From a virus (Duplodnaviria > Caudoviricetes), in the IMG/VR virus record IMGVR_UViG_3300009183_000045: a stretch of DNA of 64,000 nt; one strand, 5' to 3'. The notes below the pieces were generated by a model. It saw nothing but the letters and a program-made list of their open reading frames with translations, was not told the DNA's origin and did not search any database. The number at the start of each line of letters is the position of its first letter. The stretch's first letter is position 1. A program made the translations under genes and the position numbers. Positions 4,304-45,474 of this stretch are shown here, piece by piece.

Positions 4304-5686
4304 TCACTCTTCATCCAAAGATTCAATTATTCTTATAGTGTCTGATACACTATTAATGTTGCTAGAAGAACCAGGCAAATTCTTTTTAGGAACTGTAAAG
4401 GATTTAGACACATCATCCGGATCCTTTAACGATAAAGTTGGATAGTCTATTTCTAATATGGTGTGACACTCTCGAGGGCCAAATCGATTCTTGGTGATGC
4501 CTAAATGAATAATTCCTAATTCAAAATCTTCTTCTTCTGTCCAGATAGGAAACTGACAATCAGCGGTGTGGGATAGACCCATGGATTCACTAGTGGTCTC
4601 AAGACCTGGATTAGATTCATTATAAGCTGATCTATTTGTCTGGGTTGCTGTGATGAGGGGGCAGCTAAAATAATAAGTTAGAGCCCTAATTTGTTCTGTG
4701 ATCTGCTTAATAGATTCATAGGAATTCATCCCCTTTTCTGGCGGTGCTAATAGATTAAGATAGTCCAAAACTATGATATCCGGCTTAATTCCCTTCCTCA
4801 CCAACCGATCAATGTAGGATTTAATTTGAAGAGGAGTGACTGATTTAGGAGGAAATTCTTTAATAATTAATTTAGACATCTTGTGTTGAATTTTATACTT
4901 TTCAACACTTTGTTTGAGAGGACCTATCTGCATGGACAGATCATTCATTGCTATTTTAGATAACTGAGAACTAATGCGCTTGGCGTATACCTGCTCAGAC
5001 ATTTCCAAAGAAATTAATAAAACAGTTTTATCTTGATCTAAAATATTTGTGGCTATATTTCCGAGAAAAATTGATTTACCCACATTAGTAACTCCATAAA
5101 ATACATACAAGGCCCTTCCGGCCGACATGAAGCCCCCACCAATTCTTTCATCCAACCATTTCCATCCTGAGGGAATTACTTTAAACACCTTCTGGAGGTC
5201 CTTACAGTGCTCATCTATGTCTTCTAGATAATCAAAGCCGTAATTTTCTACAAGGTTTATGTTACACGCTTCATCAAAGTCTTGTAATATTTTGGTGGTG
5301 TTTATTTCTCCGGACTGAACATCTATAGAAGTTTTCAATACTGTACTATAAACTGCCTTTTCTCTGAAAAACCTCTCAGAATTCTTCAACAATACATCCT
5401 TATCATAGGATTTATCTATAACCTCAAATCCCAAAGCTACCTGCTTCAAAGAATTGCGTTTTTCATTATCCACCATGTGGACCTTTAATTCAGTAATGTT
5501 GGGTATTTTGTGATAATTTGAGTAATATTCTGCCAAGGATTCAAAAACTGATCTAATGTTTTTGTCCTCAAAATAACTAGGTTTGGCATGTTCAATAATA
5601 CTTTCCAGGTAAACTGGATCCATCAAAGCGTTGTATATAATGAGCTTCTCAAATAGAGCAAGATCAATCGGCAAAGAAGACTTCAT
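4304..5686 (-). CDS. gp41 replicative DnaB-like helicase
   Basis: IPSGWKWLD, Walker A-like GVTNVGKS, ISLEMSE, IVLDYLNL, TATQTNR, SESMGL, KNRFG. Confidence 0.95.
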   Translation of the reverse strand: MKSSLPIDLALFEKLIIYNALMDPVYLESIIEHAKPSYFEDKNIRSVFESLAEYYSNYHKIPNITELKVHMVDNEKRNSLKQVALGFEVIDKSYDKDVLLKNSERFFREKAVYSTVLKTSIDVQSGEINTTKILQDFDEACNINLVENYGFDYLEDIDEHCKDLQKVFKVIPSGWKWLDERIGGGFMSAGRALYVFYGVTNVGKSIFLGNIATNILDQDKTVLLISLEMSEQVYAKRISSQLSKIAMNDLSMQIGPLKQSVEKYKIQHKMSKLIIKEFPPKSVTPLQIKSYIDRLVRKGIKPDIIVLDYLNLLAPPEKGMNSYESIKQITEQIRALTYYFSCPLITATQTNRSAYNESNPGLETTSESMGLSHTADCQFPIWTEEEDFELGIIHLGITKNRFGPRECHTILEIDYPTLSLKDPDDVSKSFTVPKKNLPGSSSNINSVSDTIRIIESLDEE

Positions 5687-27627: not shown

Positions 27628-27843
27628 ATGTCCACAAAATTTCAACAATTATTTTTACAACTCATGGAGGACAACTCAGCGGCTCCAGGAGGTGCTTTTG
27701 GACCCAATGACGCATGGTCTCCCGAAAATATCCCCAATAATGACACAAGAGCCACTATGTCTGTGGTAAACTGGGGAAAAGGAAAAAAAGAAAAAAAGAA
27801 AAAATTTCCGTTGATAAAAAGAAATTTGAATAGATCTTTATAA
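27628..27843 (+). CDS. Small hypothetical protein, candidate internal head protein
   Basis: MSTKFQQLFLQLME leader, basic tail, TAATG coupling to the next gene. Confidence 0.6.
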   Translation: MSTKFQQLFLQLMEDNSAAPGGAFGPNDAWSPENIPNNDTRATMSVVNWGKGKKEKKKKFPLIKRNLNRSL

Positions 27844-28268
27844 TGGCAACGGAAGAAACCACAGGACATTGGATATTATCCGATGGAATAATAATAAATG
27901 AATTAACCTTTGGCTTTATATATGAAATTACTAATAATATAGAAAATAAAATATATATTGGTAAAAAACAATGTAATTCTAGAATTAAAAGAAAACCATT
28001 AAAAGGAAAAACTAGAAATAGAATAGATTATAAAGAATCAGATTGGAAGACCTATACAAGTTCTTCGGAAAATTTAAATAATGATATTTTACGCCTAGGA
28101 AAAGAAAATTTTACATTCAAAATAATTAGAACAGGCACCTGTAAGTGGGAATTAGCGTATTATGAGGCTAAAGAACAATTTGATCGCAATGTTCTCTTTC
28201 AAAAAAATTATTACAATGGTATTATAAACTTAAGAATTGGTTCACCTCCTAAAAATTTAACAACTTAA
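27843..28268 (+). CDS. Stand-alone GIY-YIG nuclease
   Basis: GFIY.ITN....IYIGKKQ, ESDWKTY.SS, F.FKII, E..EQF, YYN. Confidence 0.85.
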   Translation: MATEETTGHWILSDGIIINELTFGFIYEITNNIENKIYIGKKQCNSRIKRKPLKGKTRNRIDYKESDWKTYTSSSENLNNDILRLGKENFTFKIIRTGTCKWELAYYEAKEQFDRNVLFQKNYYNGIINLRIGSPPKNLTT

Positions 28269-28818: not shown

Positions 28819-32724
<3,906 letters not shown>

Positions 32725-33236: not shown

Positions 33237-34125
33237 CATGTCTGAAAAATATATTATATTTCACATAGATGGTGGTGTAGGCAAAAGTGTGTTAGCCACC
33301 GCAGTTTGCACTTCTATAAAAGCAGCTCATCCAAACAGAAAATTAATTGTTATTTCTGCGTGGCCAGAAGTATTTTTACACAATCCCTTAATTTATAGAG
33401 TTTATAAAGCTGGTAATTTTGCATATTTTTATGAAGATTTTATTAAAAATAAAGACTCTTTAATTTTTCGACTAGAGCCCTATCATGCTCATGATTTTGT
33501 ACATCAATCTAAATCTTTAATTGAAATCTGGTGTGATTTACTGCACATTCCTTGCTCGACTCTACAACCCACTATAGTGTTGTCTCAAAGAGAAATTGTA
33601 AATGCTCAAAGTGTACTTGACAAAAAGAAATCTATATTAATGATTCATCCATTTGGTGGGGGAGATAATGAACCAAATTCCTATTCATGGGCCAGAGATC
33701 TACCACCAGCATTTGCTCAATCCCTGGTTAACAAGTTGTACAAACAATTCGATAAAGTTCTTCAAGTAAGGAGAGATAAGCAGATTTTATTAGAAAATAC
33801 TGTAAGTGTAACAGACAATTTGAGAAATTTATTTTGTTATGTTCATCTTTCAGATAAGATCATAGCCATGGACTCTATGATTCAGCATATAGCAGCAGCT
33901 TTAAACAAACCAGCGGTGGTTGGATGGATAGGCAATTCTCCAAATGTATTTGGGCATAAAATTCACACAAATGTACCACCACAACAAAGACCTGCCTTTA
34001 GACATTCCATTGATTCTTACATGGAAGAGTTGGATTGGACTGGAAAAAGATATCACGAATGTCCTTATGAAGACATTAATCACATTTTTGATGAAAAAGA
34101 ATTTTTAGAATATTGTAAATTATGA
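33229..34125 (+). CDS. GT9 (heptosyltransferase-like) GT-B glycosyltransferase
   Basis: DGGVGK.V..TAV, IHPFGG, IAMDSMIQH.AAALNKPAVV.W. Confidence 0.7.
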   Translation: MINMSEKYIIFHIDGGVGKSVLATAVCTSIKAAHPNRKLIVISAWPEVFLHNPLIYRVYKAGNFAYFYEDFIKNKDSLIFRLEPYHAHDFVHQSKSLIEIWCDLLHIPCSTLQPTIVLSQREIVNAQSVLDKKKSILMIHPFGGGDNEPNSYSWARDLPPAFAQSLVNKLYKQFDKVLQVRRDKQILLENTVSVTDNLRNLFCYVHLSDKIIAMDSMIQHIAAALNKPAVVGWIGNSPNVFGHKIHTNVPPQQRPAFRHSIDSYMEELDWTGKRYHECPYEDINHIFDEKEFLEYCKL

Positions 34126-34403
34126 GCCAAGATATAAATCCTGAAACAGTTGAAACCATCGTTAGCATAGGTAGAATTTTTTCCGAAAAGGAAAACATGT
34201 GGATGCCTTGTTTGAAAGATGAAGCCACACATGATATAGATCCTATGTGGGTTGCAGCAGTAATGTATTTGGTTCTAGACAGATATACTGGATGTGTTCC
34301 AGATGATAAACAAATAGAATTTTATGAAATGACTATGAAGTTTTTTGAAACCATGAAAGAAGATGGGGCTCAATATATTCTAAAAGTTCCTAGCGCGGAC
34401 TAA
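34122..34403 (+). CDS. Hypothetical protein, 93 aa
   Basis: ATGA overlap with the upstream gene. Confidence 0.6.
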   Translation: MSQDINPETVETIVSIGRIFSEKENMWMPCLKDEATHDIDPMWVAAVMYLVLDRYTGCVPDDKQIEFYEMTMKFFETMKEDGAQYILKVPSAD

Positions 34404-34406
34404 ATA
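34401..34406 (+). promoter_or_regulatory. Late promoter core TAAATA, 5 nt before the first DUF1501 ATG
   Basis: Read directly. Confidence 0.5.
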
Positions 34407-34411
34407 CCTAT

Positions 34412-35683
34412 ATGAACAGACGTGATTTTTTATACACTGGGTTGTTTGGGGGTTTGGGTTTAGCTACGGGTGACATGCTCAAACTGCAAGCGCAGTCTGG
34501 GTTGGTTCCGAAGGCACAGTCAGTAATACATATCTATTTGCCCGGCGGAGCTGCCGCTCAAGAAATGTGGGATCCAAAACCATTAGCACCTGCAGAGTAT
34601 AGAGGACCCTTAGGTTCCGTACAAACTGTAATTCCTGGTGTACATTTTTCTGAACACTTGGCCAAGACAGCAAAGATTGCAGATAAGATTACAGTAGTTC
34701 GATCTATGACCCATGGTGATGCCGCTCACGAGAGAGGAACCAGTACCATGTTTACCGGATATAGGCCTTCTCCAGCAGTTAACTACCCATCTTTTGGTGC
34801 AGTTACGTCTCATCAATTTGGTAGCAAAAATAATTTGCCAGCATACGTTTGTATTCCACAAAAATTAGACAACAATGGTAGCGATGTGGCAGGGACCGGA
34901 TATCTTTCTAATGCATTTGGTCCTTTTAGCTTAGGCAGTGACCCTGCAGCTCCTGGATTTAAAGTAAGAGATCTTCAAACCACAGTTAGTGATGAGCGCT
35001 TTAGCAAAAGACTAGGAATTCTTGACACAGTTGATAGTCACTTTAAATATCTAGAAAAGAGTGACAATCTTACTGCCATGGATACGTTCTACCAACAGGC
35101 GTATGATCTTATTGCTTCGCCGAAAGCAAGAGGAGCTTTTGATCTGACCCAGGAAAAAGATATGCTCCGAGACGCTTACGGCCGCAATCAAGCCGGCCAG
35201 CGTTTGTTAATGGCTCGCCGCCTAGTTGAATCAGGAGTTCGATTTGTATCTGTAACATATGGAGGATGGGATATGCATACTGGTATTGGTTCAGGGATCA
35301 GCAAGACATTGCCTCCCTTTGATCAGGCTTATTCTACTTTAATTAACGACTTAGATCAAAGAGGAATGCTTAATGACACCATTGTAATGGTATCTTCTGA
35401 GTTTGGTCGTACTCCAAAAATTAATAAAGACGGCGGAAGAGATCATTGGCCTCGAGTATTTTCAGTAGTATTTGCGGGTGGAGGCTTTAAACGTGGATAT
35501 ATTCACGGTGCTTCTGATGCAACTGGAGGAGATGTGGATAATTCACCTCTAACTATTGAAAACCTAGCGGCAACTCTGTATACTCAGCTTGGAATTGATC
35601 CAGATTCTAAGCTTATGACACAAGATGGCCGGCCCGTTGCGGTTGTTTATAACGGAACAGCAGTAAAAGAACTTATAGCATAA
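34412..35683 (+). CDS. DUF1501 family protein with Tat signal (copy 1)
   Basis: MNRRDFL, KAQSVIHIYLPGG, WDPKP, ARRLVESGVRFV, WDMH, SEFGRTP, RDHW, GGGFKRG. Confidence 0.93.
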   Translation: MNRRDFLYTGLFGGLGLATGDMLKLQAQSGLVPKAQSVIHIYLPGGAAAQEMWDPKPLAPAEYRGPLGSVQTVIPGVHFSEHLAKTAKIADKITVVRSMTHGDAAHERGTSTMFTGYRPSPAVNYPSFGAVTSHQFGSKNNLPAYVCIPQKLDNNGSDVAGTGYLSNAFGPFSLGSDPAAPGFKVRDLQTTVSDERFSKRLGILDTVDSHFKYLEKSDNLTAMDTFYQQAYDLIASPKARGAFDLTQEKDMLRDAYGRNQAGQRLLMARRLVESGVRFVSVTYGGWDMHTGIGSGISKTLPPFDQAYSTLINDLDQRGMLNDTIVMVSSEFGRTPKINKDGGRDHWPRVFSVVFAGGGFKRGYIHGASDATGGDVDNSPLTIENLAATLYTQLGIDPDSKLMTQDGRPVAVVYNGTAVKELIA

Positions 35684-35684
35684 T

Positions 35685-37052
35685 ATGAAAGACTGTGGTA
35701 ATCATATCGAGTCCGTTCCTACTACTAGGAGAGAATTATTAACTAATTTTGGGTGGGGTATGGGAGGATTGTCTTTAGCTTCTTTGTTGGGAGTATGTCC
35801 TAATACAGCCGAAGCCGTATCTCCTCTTGCAGCAAAAAATCCACACTTTCCTGTAAAGGCAAGAGCAGTCATTCAACTAGTAGCAAGTGGTGCTCCAAGC
35901 CATGTTGATACGTTTGATTACAAACCCGAACTGCAAAAAAGAGATGGCCAAAAAGGAGACAATGGCAATCTTCTTGCTTCACCTTTCGAGTTTCCTCGAT
36001 TTGGTAAATCTGGATTGCACATTTCTGAAGTATGGTCCAAGTTAGGAGCTCATGCTGATGATATGGCGATCATCAATTCCATGTTTACCGAAATTCCTGA
36101 TCACAACATTGCCCAAAAAATGTTTAATACCGGATCAGCACAATTGCCCAAGCCTAGTTTAGGAAGTTGGTTGGCATATGGACTAGGAACCACTAATCAA
36201 AATATGCCGGCATTCATTTCTTTAAATGGGAGTCCAGAATGGAGACAGTGTGCTTTTTTACCCGGAATGTTTCAGGGTTGCAATGTTCAATATAAAAATA
36301 ACATGAAGTCAGATCAGATCCTTTCTAATCTAACCAGTCAGTTTTCTACATTAGACCGCCAGCGCCGGCAGTTAGATTTAGCCAAGATGATGAATTATGA
36401 TCACATGAGTCGCCTACAGAAGGACATTCAGCTGGAATCTAGAATCGAAACATTTGAAACTGCATTTAAGATGCAAACAGAAGCAACAGACGCTTTTGAT
36501 ATATCTAAAGAATCAGAAGCTACCCATGAGTTATATGGCAAAAACGAAGAAGGAAATAAAATGATGGTTGCTCGGCGCCTGGTAGAGAGAGGAGTTCGGT
36601 ATGTTCAAGTCCAAGTTGGTGGTTATGATCATCATATGGATATAAAAACAGCTATGACCCGGACCGCTGGTAGATATGACCAAGCCTTCTCTGCTCTTCT
36701 TACTGACCTTAAACAGCGAGGACAGCTAGATTCCACTCTTGTAATCTGGGGTGGAGAGTTTGGTCGTACTGTCACGGCAGGCGGCGGCGCGGGTGCCCCT
36801 GGAAGAGATCATAATGGTAAGGCATTTTCTGTGTGGATGGCTGGTGGAGGTGTTAAAGGCGGCCAGCGATATGGCGAAACAGATGAAACCGGCTCCAAAT
36901 CAATTAAAGATGTAGTACATATTCATGATTTACATGCTACAATTTTAGCCCTTATGGGATTTGATCATAAAAAATTGACTTACAATTATAACGGAAGAGA
37001 GTTTCGATTAACTGATAACTTTGGAAACGTGGTTAAAGAAATTATTTCTTAA
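35685..37052 (+). CDS. DUF1501 family protein with Tat-like signal (copy 2)
   Basis: TRRELL..G.G.G.LSLA.LL, KARAVIQL...GAPSHVDTFDYKP, ARRLVERGVR, YDHH, WGGEFGRT, GRDHN. Confidence 0.93.
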   Translation: MKDCGNHIESVPTTRRELLTNFGWGMGGLSLASLLGVCPNTAEAVSPLAAKNPHFPVKARAVIQLVASGAPSHVDTFDYKPELQKRDGQKGDNGNLLASPFEFPRFGKSGLHISEVWSKLGAHADDMAIINSMFTEIPDHNIAQKMFNTGSAQLPKPSLGSWLAYGLGTTNQNMPAFISLNGSPEWRQCAFLPGMFQGCNVQYKNNMKSDQILSNLTSQFSTLDRQRRQLDLAKMMNYDHMSRLQKDIQLESRIETFETAFKMQTEATDAFDISKESEATHELYGKNEEGNKMMVARRLVERGVRYVQVQVGGYDHHMDIKTAMTRTAGRYDQAFSALLTDLKQRGQLDSTLVIWGGEFGRTVTAGGGAGAPGRDHNGKAFSVWMAGGGVKGGQRYGETDETGSKSIKDVVHIHDLHATILALMGFDHKKLTYNYNGREFRLTDNFGNVVKEIIS

Positions 37053-37054
37053 TT

Positions 37055-37867
37055 TTACTCTTCATAAAAGAAATTAATTTTTAACTTGGACAGACTATCG
37101 CATACCCACGCAACACTATCATCTCTAGTCCACTCCTGAGTTTTAGTGCGAATTCCTTTAATAAACACATCGGAGAAATTTTCACCAAAATTAATTTCCG
37201 GTGTTCCATACCTACCATGAATAACACCCAACGCAGCTGCATTAGGTAAACTTTCAATAACTCTCATCCAGCATTGTCTAAACGCGTCCGGACAAACTAA
37301 CCAAAAAGATAATAAATTCATATCCAGGGTCTGTTCGGCGGTTTTGAGAATTACAGAACCCCGAAATGTATGATTATTTTTTGATATTGAACAATATTGA
37401 GTTATAGAAACCGCCCGCCCCGACTGTTCTATCAAATAAGCCAACACCGCAACAATAGCACCCCTTTCAATCATGGCATTTTTAGAGAAACCAGAAGGAG
37501 CGGTGGAGTTTATTCCTATTTTAATGATTTTTCTTTCATCATCCGGGTCTTTAGATATAAAAGATCCCTTATTAAAAGATTGCTGAGGATCAAGCCAGCA
37601 CTCTGGCGCACCAGAACAAACTAAACCTATATCAAAAAATAAGCCAGCTGTAGCAGGAAAAAATTCCTTCCAGAATTTTTCTGGTTCTATTTGTAGCGGC
37701 AGATTTTGAAGTAAATCAACTATATAGGACATCCCATCAGACCACCCACCCCGAGCATTACTCAGAACAGATGAGTCACTACCATAATCTATAAAATCTA
37801 TAAGATCTTGTGTAGATTCAAAGTTGAGAATAGTTTCCATGCAATTAAGCCTGACGTATTTTGTCAA
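37055..37867 (-). CDS. vWA-like partner of a MoxR/CobS AAA ATPase
   Basis: FDIG....GAPECW, IGINSTA.SG, RGAIV..L...IE..G; adjacent to the AAA gene. Confidence 0.6.
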   Translation of the reverse strand: MTKYVRLNCMETILNFESTQDLIDFIDYGSDSSVLSNARGGWSDGMSYIVDLLQNLPLQIEPEKFWKEFFPATAGLFFDIGLVCSGAPECWLDPQQSFNKGSFISKDPDDERKIIKIGINSTAPSGFSKNAMIERGAIVAVLAYLIEQSGRAVSITQYCSISKNNHTFRGSVILKTAEQTLDMNLLSFWLVCPDAFRQCWMRVIESLPNAAALGVIHGRYGTPEINFGENFSDVFIKGIRTKTQEWTRDDSVAWVCDSLSKLKINFFYEE

Positions 37868-38897
37868 TTGTATTTGGTGACATGGCTTTATACAAAAGAC
37901 CCTTTTCTAAAAATTGAATAGGAACTCCCTGCTTAATTAAAGCAATTCCTATATAAGTGGCTCTCGGCGAAATAATAGCCTTAATACCCAATTCTACTAT
38001 TGTATCTCGTGTTTTCTTAACAGTTTCAAGCCAGGATTCTACTGTTGGAACTTTTTGACCAGCATTATCCCATTGAGGTGAAGAAATTCCTGGGTAACCA
38101 GCAACATGAGATTCTAATCCATCATCATACGGCATTTCAATAAAAAAGAAACGATCCAGCGTTGCGGCATCTATCTGAACTCTGCCTACATATCCACTGG
38201 TTGCTCCTAAACCAAAAGTGTTAGCACATGCAATAACCACAAAATCTGCATGGCGTTTAACTGCTCTGTCAGGAAACTCATTTGAATCATTGGCCAACGC
38301 ACTATTAAGTACCGCCAAAACATTAGCATTGCCGTTGTCTATTTCATCGAGACAAAATATACCACCATTTTCATAGGCCTGCCTAAAACTAGTAGACCTA
38401 TAAACACCCTGGGCGTCCATATATCCCAAGAGATCTGTTTTAGTAGTTTGACTACACACACTTAAGGCAGCATATGGTAGATTCAATTTAGCAGCAGTAG
38501 CGGCAGCTAAGGTAGATTTTCCGCTTCCAGCCGGCCCCACAAGCCACACATGACAACGAGCATTTAATACTTTTGTAACAAGGGGAAATAAATAGTGATG
38601 ACGAACTTTGTCTGGTTTAATCTCCAAAGTAGCCGCCAAAGGTGAAGACACTTCTTTAATAATTTCTTTAATAAGAGGATCTTCTTCCTTTGCCTTCTTA
38701 ATAAGTTCTTGTATTCTCAATTCTTCTCTTTGTTTATGTAAATCTTCTACATCTCTAGATCGAACTATGTGAATATTTGCTCTAAGTATTTGTTGTTCCG
38801 GTGTCAAAGTGGCGGTAAACTGATCACTTATTTCATGCATCAATTTACTTTTTTCTTTAATCAATTCATCAAGTTGTTTTATTGTATAATTTTCCAT
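37845..38897 (-). CDS. MoxR/CbbQ/CobS-type AAA+ ATPase
   Basis: GPAGSGKST, LDEID.GN, ACANT.G.G, DAATLDRF. Confidence 0.9.
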   Translation of the reverse strand: MENYTIKQLDELIKEKSKLMHEISDQFTATLTPEQQILRANIHIVRSRDVEDLHKQREELRIQELIKKAKEEDPLIKEIIKEVSSPLAATLEIKPDKVRHHYLFPLVTKVLNARCHVWLVGPAGSGKSTLAAATAAKLNLPYAALSVCSQTTKTDLLGYMDAQGVYRSTSFRQAYENGGIFCLDEIDNGNANVLAVLNSALANDSNEFPDRAVKRHADFVVIACANTFGLGATSGYVGRVQIDAATLDRFFFIEMPYDDGLESHVAGYPGISSPQWDNAGQKVPTVESWLETVKKTRDTIVELGIKAIISPRATYIGIALIKQGVPIQFLEKGLLYKAMSPNTIDKIRQA

Positions 38898-38953
38898 ATA
38901 GTTATATTTATTAATTTAGTTCATTCTCTTGCACTTTAGAATCATCATTGGAT

Positions 38954-39931
38954 TCATATTAATTCAAAATAATTAGGTTTTATGTTAAAACTCAGTCCCT
39001 CATTATAACTAGTTATGTTAATGTTGTTAATCATGAGCTTGGTTCTGCCTATTAAGTGCAAATACAGATGTTCGGTTTTAATGCCCCGCTCGTCCTGAAT
39101 TCTAAATAATTTTCCTTTTTGATAAGAAAAATACTGGTTGGTGTAATTTTTAATATTATTTTCTTCAAAATGTCTTGGTATGAAAACATCTTTATAAGAA
39201 GCATTTTCTGCGGGGTTAAACAAATCACACATTTCACCGTTTTCCGTCAACTTATAAAATTTATAAGTTGGAATCAACGTAGAATACACCTTTACAGTGC
39301 CCTGTGACCACCCTTCACAAGTTAAAAGATGTTTATGATTTTTGTTAATAAGTTCATCTTTATGTTTATTTAAACTAAGGTTTAAATAATTTTTATGCCC
39401 ATTTTCAGGCCAAACACCAATATTTGTGAGAATTTGTTTAATAAACCCATCATTTTTATATAGACAAAAATGCCCTCTAGAACCTATAAAATTATAGTTT
39501 TTATCCATTAAAGGTTGTATTATATTTTCAATATCACCCATTATGGTATCATTATCAAAATAACCACAATATTCATACCCCTCTAAGTCTTTTTTAAAAA
39601 TGTCATCAAAATAACACCTATAATCGGCAAATTTATACATTGGAGTTTTTGCTTTAAATACAGTTTCTTTTTCTCTAACGTTTAAAAGCAAAGGATCCGG
39701 GATATCTAAATCAAACCAATCTTTTAAAGTAGCAGTTAACATGGGATTTAAATCTTCAGCAGTTAAAAATTTATCTATTACATTAGAAGGTAGTTCCGGT
39801 TTATTTTTTATGTCATTGATAAACAAAAAGTCTATATTCTTATTTTGTGCCAAGCTGTACAAAAATAAATTAAAAAACGGATGCAGTTGTCCGTGCATGT
39901 GAAATATTAGACATATTTTATTTTTTTTCAT
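38954..39931 (-). CDS. DUF6625-like putative glycosyltransferase
   Basis: G.L..FFNLFL.S...N..IDFL, YKFADYR, GY..CGYFDND..MGDI; start moved to MKKNK (ATG 39931) to remove the overlap. Confidence 0.65.
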   Translation of the reverse strand: MKKNKICLIFHMHGQLHPFFNLFLYSLAQNKNIDFLFINDIKNKPELPSNVIDKFLTAEDLNPMLTATLKDWFDLDIPDPLLLNVREKETVFKAKTPMYKFADYRCYFDDIFKKDLEGYEYCGYFDNDTIMGDIENIIQPLMDKNYNFIGSRGHFCLYKNDGFIKQILTNIGVWPENGHKNYLNLSLNKHKDELINKNHKHLLTCEGWSQGTVKVYSTLIPTYKFYKLTENGEMCDLFNPAENASYKDVFIPRHFEENNIKNYTNQYFSYQKGKLFRIQDERGIKTEHLYLHLIGRTKLMINNINITSYNEGLSFNIKPNYFELI

Positions 39932-39938
39932 ATTGGAT

Positions 39939-40940
39939 TTATAACAAACTTTGTATTTTTTTGAGTACATCCTCTTTTCTGAGTTTAAAATTTGCACAAG
40001 TAGGATCCGAGGCTCTGGCTTTATTAGTGGGAGTAAAATTTTCATAACCTTCAAGGCCACTATAGGCCATATTCATCCCCTTTGCTGTGCGTTGACTGCA
40101 CTGTAAAGCTCCGTTCTTAGGAGATACAAATAGTATTTTAGCTTTGTTTGGGTTGCAGTATATTTGGTTTGTACTTCCTGTACCGCCGATAACCATTACA
40201 AATTTTGCGTTTCTGAATAGTTGTACTTGTTCTATATAAGGCATTCCGGTTAATGTAATTTTTCTAATTGGTATATCGTTTTCATTTAAAAACTGTAGTA
40301 TTTCTTCTTGATTTAGCAAAAGCCTGCAATCGGAGTCATCCCTGCCTACATATATAAAATCTGTTGGGTTCTCTTCAGGAATTAAGTATTTTTCTAATTT
40401 TTCTGAAAAATAGGATAAAGGTAGGCACCCAGCCGTGGATGTTTTGGTTGAAATTACAAGATTTTCTTTTGTAGTATATAGAACATCACGTTCCGCAAAA
40501 ATTAGCTCATAACTATCTATATTAAAATTAAAAATGTGTCGCAGGACTTCTTTTAAAACGTTACCTGCTCTGCACCACGTCATAAGTATGGCAGTGTTCT
40601 CTGGTGTATATTTTTCAAGAACACCCAAATCTTTATAAAGCAAAAATTGCCCGATAGTCTCATGATGAAGATGCCAGTAATGGCTACCAGTATTTAACTG
40701 AAGCAAATTTTTATCACTCTTTATAGTATGTTTTGGAATTTTTTCCGGTATAGCTTCTTTTTTACTATCTTTAATCCTATTACCAGAACACGAACGTATT
40801 ATTTCTCCAAAAGAGTCTTTAGCTACATCTATATCCCCATCCATGGACATAAAAGATCCTTTAGGAAGCTCATATAAAAAATATGGATCTGGTTGAAAGT
40901 GCAAACTAGAGGATTTATCAAAGTATTTTGTTTTTTTCAT
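39939..40940 (-). CDS. GT61 (DUF563) glycosyltransferase
   Basis: YWHLHHE, IYVGR....RLLLNQ.E, EQVQLF.NAK.V...G. Confidence 0.8.
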   Translation of the reverse strand: MKKTKYFDKSSSLHFQPDPYFLYELPKGSFMSMDGDIDVAKDSFGEIIRSCSGNRIKDSKKEAIPEKIPKHTIKSDKNLLQLNTGSHYWHLHHETIGQFLLYKDLGVLEKYTPENTAILMTWCRAGNVLKEVLRHIFNFNIDSYELIFAERDVLYTTKENLVISTKTSTAGCLPLSYFSEKLEKYLIPEENPTDFIYVGRDDSDCRLLLNQEEILQFLNENDIPIRKITLTGMPYIEQVQLFRNAKFVMVIGGTGSTNQIYCNPNKAKILFVSPKNGALQCSQRTAKGMNMAYSGLEGYENFTPTNKARASDPTCANFKLRKEDVLKKIQSLL

Positions 40941-40945
40941 AATGT

Positions 40946-41740
40946 TTAATAGGTCTGTCTTAAAAAGCCGTTGTATAGATTAACGCAGTATTTGTATTCT
41001 AGCTCATGCTTTTCATTAAGAAAACTACCGTAGTTTTTAATGTGAGGGTTTGTTAATTTTCTACTTTCATTAAGGTATATTTTAAAATGATAGGGTTTAG
41101 GTCCGTGGAAATGAATTAAATAGGCACTTTCATTTATGCCCCAATAAGGTTTCCAATTTATTTCATCTGATATTTTTTGATGTTTATAAAATTCATTTAA
41201 TGCTCCTTGATCTGTCGCTACAAATTTAAATTGTTTGGAAATTACAAAATCATAAAATTCCTGATATGTATCAAGCATATTTTTGGTATTACACCACATT
41301 ACACCGGAGTTGAACATCTTTACATCATTTTGATTAAATTCTCCAGTGGCTGCTATGGTTTCTGGAGTAAGTTTCAATAAAAAATCTGTAGGATCTCTGG
41401 TAAAAATAACGTCACAGTCTGTATACAAATAATACTCTATATCCAAGTTTAGCTGTTTAATTATTAAAGGTATATCTATGCGCAAAAAGGCCCCATAAAA
41501 AGTTTTGTGAGCAACCTCTTCAACCATTTCTGTTATTTTATTTTTAAAAGAAGATTCGTGTAATATTACAGTCACTCCATTTTCTTTTAGAAAATTAATG
41601 AATTCTTTATTATCACCATCATATAAGCAGTAAGCATTAAAATTGTAACTCAATGAACTTAGAACTGCAACTTTAGCCATGTCCATAAAGGCCCCGGACC
41701 TATTTTCATTCAAACAAAAAAACCAATTTATTTTTTTCAT
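40946..41740 (-). CDS. GT8 glycosyltransferase
   Basis: FLRIDIP, LYTDCDV, FNSGVM, DQGALN, NWKPYWG, IHFHGPKP. Confidence 0.88.
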   Translation of the reverse strand: MKKINWFFCLNENRSGAFMDMAKVAVLSSLSYNFNAYCLYDGDNKEFINFLKENGVTVILHESSFKNKITEMVEEVAHKTFYGAFLRIDIPLIIKQLNLDIEYYLYTDCDVIFTRDPTDFLLKLTPETIAATGEFNQNDVKMFNSGVMWCNTKNMLDTYQEFYDFVISKQFKFVATDQGALNEFYKHQKISDEINWKPYWGINESAYLIHFHGPKPYHFKIYLNESRKLTNPHIKNYGSFLNEKHELEYKYCVNLYNGFLRQTY

Positions 41741-42522
41741 AACAATTTTTTAACTTTTTCTACATATTTAAGAGCTAGGTCATCATAGACATCATTTTTA
41801 TCATATGTATCAAACATTTCTATAGGCCTTTTTTCATTAACAGTGGCTCTTCCTCTTCGTCTTTTTTCTATCCAGTCTTCATAAGATCTGTTAAAATAAT
41901 GATTAACTCTTATTTTATTTGCTATTGATTTTTCTATTCTACCTTCTTGAGTTTCATCTATTAAATCGCCGTTTTCATTTACTATTCCTTTGGTGGTAGA
42001 AAACATATGAGGTGTCATATAACCTTTTATTTCATTGGGTTTAACTATTACTTTTACATGAGTATTAGGATGCCAGTCATCACGAGCTCTGTATAAAAAA
42101 TTTTCTAAACAAGTACCAGGTTTTCTTAATATATTTCCGGAAGAACCGTATATACGCCAGCTGACACCCAGCCCGGAATAATTTTTATAATCTTCTAGAA
42201 AAGTCCTTAAATCTGTTGGTTCTTCTGGCATGAAATATTCATCTGCATCACAATATATCATCCATTCAGTGTTGTTTCTTCCGTAATTTTTATAAGAAAC
42301 TTGATAAGCATAACCCTGTCTATCTGGGCTTGGTGAATCAAAATCTATTAAAAGTATATCATCTCGGAAAGATAGATCATTTATTTTATCTTCTGTGTCA
42401 TCAGTACTCTTATCATTAAAAACATAAAATTTTTCAACGCCAAGGGTCTTGTAATAGGTCAACCATTCCTGGATGTAATGAGATTCGTTTTTAACACAGG
42501 TTGTAAGAGAAAGATATTCCAT
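41737..42522 (-). CDS. GT92/GT2-like glycosyltransferase
   Basis: KNE..YIQEWL.YY..LGVEKFYVF.D, WMIYCDADEY, HVKVIV, INHY-like VNHYFNRS. Confidence 0.85.
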   Translation of the reverse strand: MEYLSLTTCVKNESHYIQEWLTYYKTLGVEKFYVFNDKSTDDTEDKINDLSFRDDILLIDFDSPSPDRQGYAYQVSYKNYGRNNTEWMIYCDADEYFMPEEPTDLRTFLEDYKNYSGLGVSWRIYGSSGNILRKPGTCLENFLYRARDDWHPNTHVKVIVKPNEIKGYMTPHMFSTTKGIVNENGDLIDETQEGRIEKSIANKIRVNHYFNRSYEDWIEKRRRGRATVNEKRPIEMFDTYDKNDVYDDLALKYVEKVKKLL

Positions 42523-42527
42523 AAAAA

Positions 42528-42875
42528 TTATACACTAACGTATGTAATTCCCTGAATTTTTACATTTTCAACAGTTCTGGTAGAAACTTTTCTATTAGGT
42601 TCATCTGTTAACAAATAAGACCTTTGTTCTCTTTTACCGTGTAATGTGTAATGTTTTTTAAGTTCTAAATCTGTTAATTTTTCCAAATCATTATTCATTA
42701 TTTTGTAATTATTAGAGTCAAATTTTTCAGGTAAAATGTGTTTATGTTTACGATTTTCGTGCACACCAAATCTGGTGTAGTGTATAATCAATTGTTCTTC
42801 ATTCATATGAGAGAGGTCTTCGTTATACAATTTGTATAATTCCCAATCTATATCTTCTAATGATTCTTCTGACAT
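42528..42875 (-). CDS. Small protein with two Y...N.DL...HY...G..E.R repeats
   Basis: DWELYKLYNEDL..HYTRFGVHENR and NNYKIMNNDL..HYTLHGKREQR. Confidence 0.7.
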   Translation of the reverse strand: MSEESLEDIDWELYKLYNEDLSHMNEEQLIIHYTRFGVHENRKHKHILPEKFDSNNYKIMNNDLEKLTDLELKKHYTLHGKREQRSYLLTDEPNRKVSTRTVENVKIQGITYVSV

Positions 42876-42876
42876 A

Positions 42877-43950
42877 TTAAAAATGATGTGCGCAATACAT
42901 TGACCCGTCTACATACTGTTCCCAGCCATCTTCAGCCCACTCTTCACCTATAGTTCCATCCCACCCAGTCATATAATAATTTCCGTGAGGCAATTTATAG
43001 GTTAATTTATAAGGAAGAACCTCTTGAAGTGCCTTGCAATTATATAAAGCAAAGCCACCGCCTTGCATCTCTACTCGTATCAATCGAGGTTGCATTTCAT
43101 CAACTCTAGGAATTTTACCCCACAATTCGGGCTGCATTGATATGCAAGTAGTTAATGGATTTAATTTTTGTGGATAATATCCAGCCACACATGCCACTTT
43201 CTTTTTTTGTTTTTTCAAATTTTTCATGTGTTTATATAATTTTTGAAAACCATCATTAGGTGGCTCCATGTCATCTTCTATTTTCAATATATAATCATAA
43301 TGTAAAGAAGGTTCTCTAAGCAATTCTGAATAATTAACTGCTACATGAACGTGTTTATCTATAGCCAGATAGTGTTCTCCTTCTTTTATTTGATAAGATT
43401 TTCCTAAATCACAAATATAATAGTTGTTATATTTGCGACCACATTGAGACATTACATCATATAATAAATCTCTAATTTTATTATCATCACTATTATCTCC
43501 TAGAATTACATCTACTATGATATTTTCTGGTAGACAAGTTTCTCTTAAAAAGGTTTTCCAATATTCTACAAATGCTTTATTGGAAAACATTGTAACAATA
43601 GCAATACGAACCAGAGAATCTTCTGGTTTATCTTCAAAATTAAATTTTCTTTGAGACATTACTCTTCCAAAACGCAAAGAGTTTACAACATATCCACAAT
43701 TTACCAATTTTTGTATCAAGCCAAATAAATTGTCAAAATAATTGATAAAATGTGACAATAAATGGGTGTTTATAACATAAACACCATCTTGTGGCTCTAA
43801 CCAGGCTAAATTTTTATCACTTAATAATTCTTCTGCTATATTGATATTAGAATCCTTGCACACCGTAGAGTCTATTATCACATAATGTAAAGTTCTACAG
43901 TCTTCAACTCCTTTTTTAATTTCTTTTAAAAGTTCTTCTTCTGTAATCAT
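42877..43950 (-). CDS. Putative GT-A glycosyltransferase with N-terminal extension
   Basis: YILKIEDDM, GGGFALY, GWD. Confidence 0.6.
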   Translation of the reverse strand: MITEEELLKEIKKGVEDCRTLHYVIIDSTVCKDSNINIAEELLSDKNLAWLEPQDGVYVINTHLLSHFINYFDNLFGLIQKLVNCGYVVNSLRFGRVMSQRKFNFEDKPEDSLVRIAIVTMFSNKAFVEYWKTFLRETCLPENIIVDVILGDNSDDNKIRDLLYDVMSQCGRKYNNYYICDLGKSYQIKEGEHYLAIDKHVHVAVNYSELLREPSLHYDYILKIEDDMEPPNDGFQKLYKHMKNLKKQKKKVACVAGYYPQKLNPLTTCISMQPELWGKIPRVDEMQPRLIRVEMQGGGFALYNCKALQEVLPYKLTYKLPHGNYYMTGWDGTIGEEWAEDGWEQYVDGSMYCAHHF

Positions 43951-44075
43951 TTTTTAACAATGGTTATTCCAGACTTTCTAATATTTTTTACAATTTGAGG
44001 TGTGTTTTGACTATTGGCTCCATAATAATGAGGATTTATAGTTTTTACCAATTGCTTGGTTCTTATCATACTCAT
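43947..44075 (-). CDS. Unlisted small ORF, 42 aa (MSMIRTKQLVKTINPHYYGANSQNTPQIVKNIRKSGITIVKK)
   Basis: Fills the intergenic gap; its TGA overlaps the ATG of 42877..43950. Confidence 0.55.
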   Translation of the reverse strand: MSMIRTKQLVKTINPHYYGANSQNTPQIVKNIRKSGITIVKK

Positions 44076-44088
44076 TCTTCCGACTGTA

Positions 44089-44706
44089 TTAAACAAAATT
44101 TTGTCCTCCTACAAATCCGTACCAAGAGCCACCGCCCGTAAAAGTTGTAAATGAGTATATGTCTTCTGTGTAAGCATCCTGAGACATTTGAGGTATATCA
44201 TTATTTGACCACTTAACAACATTGTTGTCAAAATTCCAACTAACACTTCGTAGACCTCGTTGTTTTATTATTAAGCTAAAGGTATAAGTTTCCTGTGGTG
44301 TATGAATTAATACAAAGCTTGTAATATTATTATTTAAATCAATGTGAAATGTATTACCCTTAGAAAGATCTAAAGTAACTGTATTGTTTAATATAGGAAG
44401 GTAGGTAGTTGTTTCTGAATAATTTACAGTTCTAACACTGGTGTTTTCTAGTGTTGCTTCCCTTGCAAATATATTATCTGTCATTATAGCATGATGTAAT
44501 GTATAAATTAAATAATTTAAAACCATCCTTATGCCGGTGGCCGCAGGCACCTCTGCATTTATATAATCATATTCAGTTCCGTTTATGTATTTAGCAGTTA
44601 GGGTATTTCCTACAAATAAATCATTATCGACTATAATATCATCAAAAGCCGAGAAATCTTCTGGCCCGGTCGTAGCATCTATGTTGTTTAGAAATCTAAT
44701 GCTCAT
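44089..44706 (-). CDS. Virion/fibre-associated protein with a common phage fibre C-terminal beta domain
   Basis: TLDLSKGNTF..L..N, F.LIIKQ.G...V.W...VKW....P, DI.SF....GG..WYG. Confidence 0.6.
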   Translation of the reverse strand: MSIRFLNNIDATTGPEDFSAFDDIIVDNDLFVGNTLTAKYINGTEYDYINAEVPAATGIRMVLNYLIYTLHHAIMTDNIFAREATLENTSVRTVNYSETTTYLPILNNTVTLDLSKGNTFHIDLNNNITSFVLIHTPQETYTFSLIIKQRGLRSVSWNFDNNVVKWSNNDIPQMSQDAYTEDIYSFTTFTGGGSWYGFVGGQNFV

Positions 44707-44750
44707 ATAATAGGGTTAATAATTTATTTACGTTAAACATTCAGTTTTCC

Positions 44751-44758
44751 TATAAATA
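44751..44758 (+). promoter_or_regulatory. T4-type late promoter TATAAATA
   Basis: Exact consensus, 5 nt before ATG 44764. Confidence 0.7.
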
Positions 44759-44763
44759 AAAAT

Positions 44764-45474
44764 ATGTCTCAGGCCTCTTTTGTACAAAAACTTATTCAAG
44801 AACAAATCAGCATAGCCAAAAATAGAATTAATTCTAAATTTGATACGTTGTTGGAACACATTTTAAGAGAAGATGAGATAGCCACTGGTACGGTATCTTC
44901 TCCCCCTGACACTTCAGCCGGTGGACCCCCAACGGTACCCAATAATAACCCAATAATGCCCCAAGCAGATGATCAAACAGAATTGCCGCCGGAAAATGCA
45001 GATATTCAAATCAAATTAGCCAAACTAGCAGCATTAGCTTTATTAACAAATATGGACAAGGTGGTGGAGGACCACGAAGAAATGAGGCAAGATGAAATAT
45101 TTTTATCTAGACTAAAAAATAGTGGAGTCACAGGAGGAGAAGATAGTATAAAAGTCTTGCAAAAAATCTTAAAAATTGTAAAATTAGGAGGCAATACTGT
45201 AAATTTTGACATAAATCAAAATTTTATAGACAAATTTGATCCAGCGGCCAATGATGCAATAACAAATTTAATAGTTAAAGTTTTGTTCATCTCTAAAGAT
45301 AAAATTCTCCAAAATAATGATTCATTGAGAGGGGTAATAGATAGCATAGGAACTTTATTATCACAAATAAAACCCATAGAACAGTCAGATCCGGCAGCGG
45401 CCGTTAAAATTGCCGGTGAAATTATCCAAAAAATAAATAACGATATTCTTCCATCTGCAGACTTGACTATATAA
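44764..45474 (+). CDS. Hypothetical late protein, candidate head/internal protein
   Basis: Late promoter; F..LL..ILRE motif followed by a Pro-rich linker. Confidence 0.65.
   Translation: MSQASFVQKLIQEQISIAKNRINSKFDTLLEHILREDEIATGTVSSPPDTSAGGPPTVPNNNPIMPQADDQTELPPENADIQIKLAKLAALALLTNMDKVVEDHEEMRQDEIFLSRLKNSGVTGGEDSIKVLQKILKIVKLGGNTVNFDINQNFIDKFDPAANDAITNLIVKVLFISKDKILQNNDSLRGVIDSIGTLLSQIKPIEQSDPAAAVKIAGEIIQKINNDILPSADLTI

What the first reader, a model, noticed from the sequence alone, without database searches (positions are those of the whole stretch)
34401..37052. Two Tat-exported DUF1501 genes in a phage, apparently under a late promoter
DUF1501 (sulfatase/alkaline-phosphatase-like fold, function unknown) is massively expanded in Planctomycetota and Verrucomicrobiota, usually beside DUF1549/DUF1553 genes, which are absent here. 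The two copies are different subtypes, both keep twin-Arg signals, sit 1 nt apart, look GC-richer than the flanks (by eye) and follow TAAATA-N5-ATG. This is a candidate new auxiliary metabolic gene class acting in the host periplasm, and a strong host clue.
Basis: partly seen in the sequence, partly recalled or inferred. Interest (0 to 1): 0.75.

Follow-up and report, generated by a model that had tools for sequence, protein, structure and literature searches.

The report
Phage-borne exported DUF1501 enzyme pair
An uncultured large lake phage carries two intact, exported enzyme genes copied long ago from Verrucomicrobia (family Chthoniobacteraceae), which points to its likely host and gives a small, tractable version of a bacterial gene module whose function is still unknown.

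Summary
ORFs 34412-35683 and 35685-37052 are full-length DUF1501 proteins (E 1e-110 and 9e-129). They are about 30% identical, 1 nt apart, each has a twin-arginine leader, and TAAATA-N5-ATG precedes the first.

They are true phage genes:
- Both flanks are T4-type phage genes.
- The same arrangement recurs in independent assemblies.
- Contigs from four studies bridge both junctions.
- dN/dS is about 0.07-0.14, and GC3 is almost phage-like.

Each gene sits in a phage-only clade nested inside Chthoniobacteraceae orthologues, which are 59-69% identical.

In those bacteria the two types belong to two different DUF1501 + haem-protein (PSCyt/DUF1549/DUF1553) modules. The window lacks the partner gene. 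Sister phages, one with a 94%-identical copy, carry it.

A controlled complex model (0.78 against 0.00) docks the enzyme's helical cap on the partner's PSD1 domain.

The fold belongs to the alkaline-phosphatase superfamily, nearest the NPP/PafA enzymes. It lacks the sulfatase signature.

The chemistry, the expression timing and the host are inferred, not shown.

More than 100 IMG/VR loci carry 1-4 such genes, with several independent captures. The paper library searched holds no paper describing DUF1501 genes in phages. This scan has noted similar phage DUF1501 modules on other DNA.

The parts
34402..34407 (+). TAAATA box lying 5 nt before the ATG of the first DUF1501 gene. It resembles the core of a T4 late promoter.
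   Evidence: Read directly from the sequence. TAAATA-N5-ATG also precedes the orthologue in L001, L003, L004, L005, L006 and L017, and TAAGTA-N5-GTG does so in L014. It precedes stand-alone second-type genes in L083 and L085. In the window, 6 of 10 such motifs sit exactly on an ORF start. No expression data are available.
34412..35683 (+). DUF1501 gene, type A (P0001, 423 aa)
   Evidence: PF07394 match at E 1.1e-110, full length. It lies in a phage-only clade (support 100/100) that is sister to the Chthoniobacteraceae MAG locus L090 and sits inside a 27-row Verrucomicrobiota clade (support 100/99). dN/dS is 0.07-0.14. The AF2 model has pLDDT 91.5 and an alkaline-phosphatase-superfamily fold.
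34412..34498 (+). Predicted twin-arginine export leader of type A (about residues 1-29)
   Evidence: The RRxFL motif is followed by a Gly/Leu-rich stretch. R3, R4 and F6 are invariant in 14 phage homologues. pLDDT is about 66 over residues 1-30. The cleavage point is a guess.
35685..37052 (+). DUF1501 gene, type B (P0002, 455 aa). It starts 1 nt after the stop of type A.
   Evidence: PF07394 match at E 9.2e-129. It lies in a phage-only clade (support 100/99) inside a 16-row group with Chthoniobacteraceae orthologues (support 100/100). The predicted partner-docking residues are 80% identical to those of the modelled sister-phage protein, against 75% for the rest of the protein.
35685..35816 (+). 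Predicted twin-arginine export leader of type B (about residues 1-44, ending AEA)
   Evidence: The TRRELL motif is followed by a hydrophobic stretch and then A-E-A. The same layout is seen in all 9 dereplicated phage type B proteins. The cleavage point is a guess.
34122..34403 (+). Conserved small phage gene directly upstream (93 aa, no family match)
   Evidence: Homologues lie directly upstream of type A in L001, L005, L014 and L017/18. This fixes the left junction as phage DNA. It matches no Pfam or PHROG family.
37055..37867 (-). First gene of an 8.4-kb block (37055-45474) that follows type B here but is missing at this place in the relative G001
   Evidence: The gene matches DUF7192. None of the block's genes has a match in the related loci, and synteny with L001 resumes at window 45496. 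The same order is seen on an independent 37-kb JGI contig. X1 record 7 and X3 record 24 bridge the junction.

Best explanation
The two genes are old, host-derived auxiliary genes of an uncultured T4-type freshwater phage of about 215 kb.

**Origin.** Each was copied from a different DUF1501 module of a Chthoniobacteraceae-like verrucomicrobium, which is the probable host lineage.
- Type A comes from the 'DUF1501 - PPC protein - Big_2/PSCyt2/PSD1' module.
- Type B comes from the 'DUF1501 - PSCyt1/PSCyt2/PSD1' pair.

**Proposed working.**
1. The pair is transcribed together from a TAAATA late-type box. This step is inferred.
2. Both proteins fold in the cytoplasm and are exported by the host Tat system into the periplasm. 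This is inferred from the conserved RR leaders.
3. Each docks through its helical cap on the C-terminal PSD1 domain of a di-haem PSCyt/DUF1549/DUF1553 protein. Docking is supported by a controlled model made for type B only. Here the partner would be host-encoded, because this phage has none. Sister phages bring their own.
4. The phage thereby keeps up or boosts one specific periplasmic reaction of the host while host gene expression fails.

**Chemistry.** It is unknown. The fold is an alkaline-phosphatase-superfamily metalloenzyme, nearest to NPP/PafA phosphoesterases. The most likely job is cleaving a phosphate or sulfate ester from an organic nutrient.
For: **Phage residence**
- T4-type genes lie on both sides.
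- Flanks are syntenic in L001, L005, L014 and L017.
- An independent 37-kb contig has the identical gene order.
- Contigs from 4 runs of 4 studies bridge both junctions.
- The relative G001 is rated 100% complete at 227 kb and holds both genes.

**Selection**
- dN/dS is 0.07-0.14 with saturated dS.
- The RR motif is kept in 72 of 74 dereplicated phage copies.
- H106, D287, H289, D304, D313, R333, R343, D344 and H345 are invariant in all 143 phage and cellular sequences aligned. E330 is kept in 142 of 143.

**Origin**
- The nearest cellular proteins are 63-67% identical, from freshwater Chthoniobacteraceae and other Verrucomicrobiota MAGs. For type B they are 59-64% identical.
- Careful trees place each phage clade inside these orthologues.
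- The MAG genome G009 is the nearest for type A (69%), type B (64%) and the sister phages' partner (50%).

**Module context**
- I determined the cellular neighbours myself. They match the modules described in PMC3542564.
- Partner genes occur in sister phages. Both CxxCH motifs are conserved in them.

**Docking**
- Complex prediction scored 0.78, with a best control of 0.00. That mark was reached by 58 of 80 solved complexes and 2 of 110 mismatched pairs. The three runs agree in at least 93% of their contacts, and the partner's pLDDT is at least 86.
- The interface residues are 80% conserved in the window's type B and 73% in the G009 orthologue, against 62% for the rest of that protein. In paralogues they are only 36-43% conserved.

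**Fold**
- The AF2 model has pLDDT 91.5.
- The best structural matches are ENPP6, ENPP7, PafA and Xac NPP at Z 19.3-19.8 (rmsd 3.0-4.2 over 242-273 residues). Sulfatases score Z 16-18.
Against: - No function is known for any DUF1501 or PSCyt/PSD protein.
- The phage is about 33% GC, while the nearest donor genomes are 53-66% GC. The host call therefore rests only on the ancestry of the genes.
- The canonical 'S-D-H-G' metal-ligand pair of the superfamily aligns with S-E-F-G in DUF1501 (the E-values are weak). The active site is therefore remodelled and may not be a hydrolase.
- This window and the complete relative G001 lack a partner gene. The proteins may therefore not need one.
- The docking model used a sister phage's pair with my own alignments and a partner cut into two pieces.
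- The fold preference for NPP over sulfatase is a difference of only 1-2 Z units.
Confidence: 0.6

Rival explanations
1. The proteins are stand-alone periplasmic phosphoesterases. They need no haem partner and simply free phosphate, or another nutrient, for phage DNA synthesis, in the way cyanophage phosphate-stress genes are thought to work.
For: - The window and the complete relative G001 have no partner gene.
- The best structural matches are NPP and PafA phosphoesterases.
- Export signals are conserved.
- All holders are lake or sea metagenomes.
Against: - Cellular orthologues sit next to PSCyt/PSD genes.
- Sister phages took the partner along.
- The predicted docking surface is at least as conserved as the rest of the protein in the partner-less window copy.
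- Two different subtypes are kept together, which fits two specific modules better than one general phosphatase.
Confidence: 0.2
2. The proteins interfere with the host instead of helping it. The phage copies displace the host enzymes on their haem partners, or alter an envelope component. That would change the cell surface, block other phages or prepare lysis.
For: - The genes sit beside tail-fibre and glycosyltransferase genes and behind a late-type box.
- The same superfamily holds envelope-modifying enzymes (LtaS, EptA/MCR-1, YejM) among the fold matches, at Z 15-16.
Against: - All residues invariant in the cellular family are kept.
- dN/dS is low, and no phage-specific changes are seen at the docking surface.
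- There is no membrane anchor of the kind LtaS and EptA have.
- In G002 the two genes lie 48 kb apart, away from any single fixed neighbourhood.
Confidence: 0.08
3. The proteins are virion or tail-associated enzymes that attack the host capsule. The idea comes from the position after the tail-fibre block.
For: The genes follow a 1301-aa collagen-like tail-fibre gene and three conserved small genes on the same strand.
Against: - A cleavable Tat leader is kept in 72 of 74 phage copies. That sends the protein out of the cytoplasm, where virions assemble.
- The position is not conserved. The genes are dispersed in G002 and lie in other contexts in L083 and L189.
Confidence: 0.04
4. The stretch is host DNA wrongly joined to a phage contig, as an assembly chimera or contamination.
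For: The genes are richer in GC than their flanks, and the family is typical of bacteria.
Against: - GC3 is phage-like at 0.30-0.31, while the nearest bacterial loci are 0.53-0.66 GC overall.
- Both junctions are bridged in contigs from four studies, two of them strain variants about 96% identical.
- The same junctions occur in other assemblies and in relatives.
- The best bacterial identity is only 59-69%.
Confidence: 0.01

Closest known systems
DUF1501 + PSCyt1/PSCyt2/PSD1 (DUF1549/DUF1553) gene modules of Planctomycetota, Verrucomicrobiota and Lentisphaerota (Kamneva et al. 2012, PMC3542564; He et al. 2017, PMC5615132)
   Same: - It is the same Pfam family over its full length and has the same twin-arginine leader.
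- The window's two genes are orthologues (59-69% identical) of the DUF1501 members of two module types described there.
   Different: - The genes are encoded by a lytic-type phage and recoded to about 30% GC3.
- Only the enzyme genes are present here. The haem partner is missing.
- There is one copy of each type, instead of the 20-40+ paralogues seen per bacterial genome.
Phage auxiliary genes for nutrient acquisition, such as the pstS and phoA-type genes of T4-like cyanophages (from my own knowledge)
   Same: They are host-derived, envelope-located proteins kept under purifying selection in aquatic T4-type phages. They presumably sustain a host function during infection.
   Different: - The substrate and reaction are unknown.
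- Export is by Tat.
- The protein is probably one subunit of a two-protein module whose other half is left to the host.
NPP-type phosphodiesterases and PafA alkaline phosphatase (PDB 5ege, 5udy, 7mw8, 5too)
   Same: They share the alkaline-phosphatase-superfamily core, at Z 19.3-19.8 (rmsd 3.0-4.2 over 242-273 residues).
   Different: - Sequence identity is only 12-16%.
- The canonical Asp-His ligand pair aligns with Glu-Phe.
- DUF1501 has a large helical cap (about residues 194-274 of type A), which is the predicted docking surface.
Sister-phage cassettes: L189 (DUF1501-A, a secreted HExxH protein, DUF1501-B, then a 990-aa PSCyt/DUF1549/DUF1553 protein) and L083/L084/L086 (DUF1501-B plus partner)
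   Same: - They belong to the same phage lineage. The portal is 72% identical in G013, and type A is 94% identical in L189.
- They carry the same two DUF1501 clades.
   Different: Those phages carry the partner, and in L189 a 506-aa protease-like gene as well. The window holds the minimal A+B form with a 1-nt spacer.

Membership tests
Pfam DUF1501 (PF07394) | Full-length match to the family profile above the gathering score | tested here: met
   370.9 and 430.4 bits against a cut-off of 27, over profile positions 1-390 of 390.
Pfam DUF1501 (PF07394) | N-terminal twin-arginine (Tat) leader, as reported for many members | tested here: met
   RRDFL and RRELL motifs are each followed by a hydrophobic stretch. 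72 of 74 phage copies and 87 of 92 cellular copies carry the motif. This is motif-based only. Export itself was not tested.
DUF1501 / PSCyt-DUF1549-DUF1553 two-gene module | An adjacent gene for a PSCyt/DUF1549/DUF1553 protein | tested here: not met
   No such gene lies in the 64-kb window. The complete relatives G001-G005 have none, apart from a 29-bit fragment hit. The feature is met in the sister phages L083, L084, L086 and L189 and in the cellular orthologues.
DUF1501 / PSCyt-DUF1549-DUF1553 two-gene module | Physical association of the two proteins | tested here: inconclusive
   The model supports binding for the sister phage's pair. The score is 0.78 with a best control of 0.00. That mark was reached by 58 of 80 solved complexes and 2 of 110 mismatched pairs. 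Contact agreement is at least 93% and the partner's pLDDT at least 86. This is a prediction, not a measurement, and it was not made with the window's own protein.
Alkaline-phosphatase superfamily | Shared alpha/beta core fold | tested here: met
   AF2 pLDDT is 91.5. VIA-align gives Z 19.8 to ENPP6 (rmsd 3.0 over 244 residues), with about 50 superfamily members at Z 14.8-19.8. In Foldseek the top 50 listed matches (E 8e-8 to 1e-5) are all members of this superfamily.
Alkaline-phosphatase superfamily | Canonical metal-ligand set, including the Asp-His pair after the strand '..T/S-D-H-G' | tested here: inconclusive
   Profile alignment puts DUF1501 'S-S-E-F-G-R' on the sulfatase 'T-S-D-H-G' (E 0.03-0.1). 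Other invariant Asp and His residues exist (D287, H289, D344, H345, H106). Model coordinates could not be inspected.
Type I (formylglycine) sulfatases | C/S-x-P-x-R signature for the formylglycine nucleophile | tested here: not met
   Neither protein holds a [CS]-x-[PA]-x-R motif. Do not file it as a sulfatase.
T4-type late promoter | A TATAAATA-like box upstream of the transcript start, with late transcription | tested here: inconclusive
   The TAAATA core lies 5 nt before the ATG and is conserved in relatives. No RNA run holds the stretch, so timing is untested.
Phage auxiliary metabolic gene | Host-derived, conserved in phages, and acting in host metabolism | tested here: inconclusive
   Host origin and conservation are shown. 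A metabolic role cannot be tested with these tools.

The most novel reading that the evidence does not exclude
The phage encodes only the catalytic halves of two periplasmic two-protein machines and relies on the host's haem-protein halves, giving mixed phage-host complexes. DUF1501/PSCyt modules would then be a rate-limiting nutrient-processing system in PVC bacteria. Aquatic phages would have captured it many times, which would make these single-copy phage versions the first practical handle on a family that has lacked a function since its first description (first noted in Rhodopirellula baltica; PMC5615132).
Probability: 0.35. Interest if true: 0.8.

Novelty: new variant of a known kind. 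Interest (0 to 1): 0.68.

Why it matters
- **A tractable version of an unsolved family.** DUF1501 with its PSCyt/PSD partners is among the largest gene expansions in Planctomycetota and Verrucomicrobiota, with 20-40+ copies per genome here. The papers found describe no function for it. Redundancy makes genetics hard in the bacteria. Phages carry one selected copy of each type, so they point to which paralogues matter and supply small, expressible proteins.
- **A host link for a large uncultured phage group.** The gene trees tie these freshwater T4-type phages of about 215-245 kb to Chthoniobacteraceae. To my knowledge few or no phages have been isolated on this phylum.
- **A first structural hypothesis for the module.** The docking model proposes that the enzyme's cap binds the partner's PSD1 domain. 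This can be tested at the bench.
- **Evidence of strong selection.** Repeated capture by unrelated lake and ocean phages argues that the module limits phage yield.

Tried and rejected
- **GenBank phages.** INPHARED gave no real match to either protein.
- **Other family and structure libraries.** NCBIfam gave no match. PDB by single sequence gave nothing meaningful.
- **First structure model.** The AF2 run on a 14-sequence alignment was too poor to use (pLDDT 54). It was redone with 143 sequences.
- **Hallmark searches in other lineages.** Portal_T4 and Gp23 Pfam searches in G003-G007 found nothing, and nothing in the controls either, so they are uninformative.
- **A possible linked gene.** The 460-aa ORF at 4304-5686 is shared with marine DUF1501 loci. 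It turned out to be a DnaB-like helicase, not a functional partner.
- **tRNA clue.** The window holds no tRNA genes, so there is no tRNA-based host clue.
- **Expression.** No RNA holder was listed for the stretch. Expression is therefore untested.
- **Read data.** The runs laid were Logan contigs, so depth across the junctions cannot be read. Only bridging could be assessed.
- **Partner-side interface.** Conservation of the interface on the partner side did not discriminate.
- **Motif count.** The whole-window count of the TAAATA-N4-7-ATG motif is not above a shuffle (10 against 17.9). Only its placement on start codons is notable.
- **Literature.** Searches for DUF1501, DUF1549, DUF1553 and PSCyt found no functional study and no paper describing DUF1501 genes in phages.
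Full report
**What is there.** The window is part of an uncultured T4-type myovirus.
- It encodes a family-B DNA polymerase, a gp46-like nuclease, several helicases, a 1301-aa collagen-like tail fibre, a gp15-like protein, a T4-type portal, a head-closure protein and a prohead protease.
- The portal is only about 30% identical to that of any cultured phage.
- The protein of the first gene has been seen on a contig of 214,677 bp.

On the + strand lie two ORFs, 34412-35683 (423 aa, type A) and 35685-37052 (455 aa, type B).
- Both match Pfam DUF1501 over the whole profile (E 1.1e-110 and 9.2e-129).
- They are about 30% identical to each other.
- One base separates the stop of A from the start of B.
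- TAAATA lies 5 nt before the ATG of A.
- Both begin with a twin-arginine motif followed by a hydrophobic stretch.

**Are they truly phage genes?** Yes.
- The small gene upstream (34122-34403) and the genes before it have homologues in the same order in five related IMG/VR contigs. Synteny resumes downstream at window 45496.
- One of those relatives (G001, 227 kb) is rated 100% complete. Its portal is 76% identical, and it holds exactly these two DUF1501 genes side by side.
- An independent 37-kb JGI contig encodes the identical type A protein with the same neighbours on both sides.
- Contigs from four sequencing runs of four studies cover the stretch and bridge both junctions. Two match the window exactly (34134-34687 and 36913-37438). 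Two are strain variants about 96% identical (33279-34556, and 36545 onwards on a 7.1-kb contig).
- The genes are GC-richer than the window's genes (0.43 and 0.41 against 0.333 +/- 0.048). Their GC3 is 0.30 and 0.31 against 0.255 +/- 0.048, and the nearest bacterial loci are 0.53-0.66 GC. The excess therefore reflects a Gly/Ala/Arg/Pro-rich conserved protein, not recent import.
- Against relatives, dN/dS is 0.07-0.14 with saturated synonymous change.

**Where they came from.** A scan of one genome per prokaryote species found the closest cellular type A proteins, at 63-67% identity, in freshwater Chthoniobacteraceae and other Verrucomicrobiota MAGs. The same genomes hold type B orthologues at 59-64% identity, well separated from their 20-40 other paralogues. 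Among 301 Verrucomicrobiota genomes sampled evenly, only five reached E 1e-150. The best again was the MAG genome G009.

Careful maximum-likelihood trees gave the following.
- The 12 dereplicated phage type A proteins form one clade (support 100/100). It is sister to the G009 protein (93/88), inside a clade of 27 rows made up only of Verrucomicrobiota and phages (100/99).
- The 9 phage type B proteins form one clade (100/99) inside a 16-row group with the Chthoniobacteraceae orthologues (100/100).
- G009 is the nearest genome for A (69%), for B (64%) and for the partner protein of sister phages (50%).

I read this as two old captures from a Chthoniobacteraceae-like lineage, and I take that lineage as the likely host. 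The caveat is the 20-point or larger GC gap between phage and donors. Gaps of that size are known from my own knowledge (phiKZ against Pseudomonas aeruginosa). Even so, the host is inferred, not shown.

**What the genes belong to.** In the bacteria, type A is followed by a PPC-domain protein of about 800 aa and then a Big_2/PSCyt2/PSD1 protein. Type B is followed by a PSCyt1/PSCyt2/PSD1 protein of 1010-1080 aa in three of five genomes. These are two of the module types that Kamneva et al. described in 2012 (PMC3542564). He et al. noted the PSCyt genes and their unnamed neighbour families in freshwater Verrucomicrobia (PMC5615132). The papers found assign no function.

The window has no partner gene, and neither do five near-complete relatives. 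The lineage does have it, however.
- Contig G013 has a portal 72% identical to the window's. It carries type B followed by a 990-aa PSCyt/DUF1549/DUF1553 gene at phage-like GC.
- A contig whose type A is 94% identical to the window's carries, in a row, A, a 506-aa secreted HExxH protein, B and the 990-aa partner.
- The phage partners keep both CxxCH haem motifs.

**Wider distribution.** IMG/VR holds at least 105 loci with type-A-like genes.
- Many marine contigs carry two to four paralogues in a cluster beside rIIA, ribonucleotide reductase, DNA polymerase or DnaB genes. One is a 158.5-kb genome with terminal repeats.
- In a 166-row tree the phage label needs at least six changes on well-supported branches. 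Different phage clades sit beside Chthoniobacteraceae, Opitutae, Limisphaerales/Akkermansia-like and Planctomycetota proteins. Capture has therefore happened several times.
- 72 of 74 dereplicated phage copies keep the RR motif.
- One 'DUF1501 domain-containing protein [uncultured Caudovirales phage]' already sits in the viral structure library. The paper library holds no paper describing DUF1501 genes in phages.
- This scan has noted similar phage modules on other DNA.

**Structure and mechanism.** With a 143-sequence alignment the type A model reached pLDDT 91.5.
- Foldseek and a Foldseek-independent search both place it in the alkaline-phosphatase superfamily. NPP-type phosphodiesterases and PafA are on top (Z 19.3-19.8, rmsd 3.0-4.2 over 242-273 residues). 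Sulfatases, LtaS, EptA and YejM follow at Z 15-18.
- Neither protein has the formylglycine sulfatase signature.
- A profile alignment puts the family's 'S-E-F-G-R' where sulfatases have 'S-D-H-G'. The metal site is therefore remodelled.
- Across all 143 phage and cellular sequences, H106, D287, H289, D304, D313, R333, R343, D344 and H345 never vary. E330 is kept in 142.

A complex prediction was run for the sister phage's type B with two pieces of its own partner. It passed at 0.78 with a best control of 0.00. That mark was reached by 58 of 80 solved complexes and 2 of 110 mismatched pairs. The runs agree in at least 93% of contacts, and the partner's pLDDT is at least 86. It places the enzyme's helical cap on the C-terminal PSD1 domain. 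Neither DUF1501 protein matched a solved structure by sequence, so a pass from memory of a solved complex seems unlikely. The partner family was not searched against solved structures.

The cap residues at this interface are 80% identical in the window's type B, against 75% elsewhere in the protein. In the G009 orthologue they are 73% identical, against 62% elsewhere. In paralogues they are only 36-43% identical. That pattern is what a specificity-determining surface still in use would show.

**Best reading.** I propose that the phage makes two exported enzyme subunits that join the host's haem partners in the periplasm. They would keep two specific reactions running during infection. Phosphate- or sulfate-ester cleavage is the most likely chemistry, at low confidence.

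**Promoter.** TAAATA-N5-ATG precedes type A in six relatives (TAAGTA in a seventh) and precedes stand-alone type B genes in two. Six of the ten such motifs in the window sit exactly on start codons. Timing remains untested, because no RNA run holds the stretch.

**Verdict.** This is a real, conserved, host-derived pair of exported enzyme genes.
- It is a new variant of a known kind: a phage auxiliary gene drawn from a known but unexplained bacterial module.
- The partner's absence is local to this phage, not to the lineage.
- The GC excess does not mark recent transfer.
- The late expression and the metabolic role remain inferences.

Noticed in passing
window 28819-32724 (+): A 1301-aa tail-fibre ORF with collagen-like repeats. 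Its GC is 0.47-0.58 in a genome of about 33% GC, yet its GC3 is only 0.26. The GC peak is therefore driven by amino-acid composition.
   Followed up: partly
window 37055-45474 (-): An 8.4-kb block directly after the DUF1501 pair holds DUF7192, a CobS-like AAA protein, DUF6625, GT61-like and other sugar transferases, and a tail-fibre-like ORF. It is absent at this position in relative G001 and present on an independent 37-kb contig. It looks like a variable glycosylation island.
   Followed up: partly
L189:6747-8267 (+): In the closest relative, a 506-aa secreted protein with an HExxH motif (weak Reprolysin_3 match) sits between the two DUF1501 genes. It may be a further module component that the window's phage lacks.
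   Followed up: partly
G001:C1:49221-49358: A 216-aa ORF in the complete relative gives a 29-bit partial PSCyt2 (DUF1549) hit, and G002 gives a weaker one. This may be a remnant or a small haem-domain protein. It lies outside my window.
   Followed up: no
L065:4900-12659: A marine phage contig carries, in one row, a 714-aa DUF1549/DUF1553 protein, a DUF1501, a 549-aa ORF, a second DUF1501 and a 452-aa ORF. This is a larger captured cassette of another origin.
   Followed up: partly
L128, L131, L132, L157: MAG contigs labelled Klebsiella, Alcaligenaceae or Chitinophaga carry DUF1501 genes nearly identical to those of Limisphaerales or Gemmataceae. The labels are probably binning or naming errors in the public records.
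   Followed up: no
window 27843-28268 (+): A 141-aa ORF between the helicase block and the tail-fibre block matches homing-endonuclease PHROGs and a family labelled NAD synthetase. It may be a mobile endonuclease at a module boundary.
   Followed up: no
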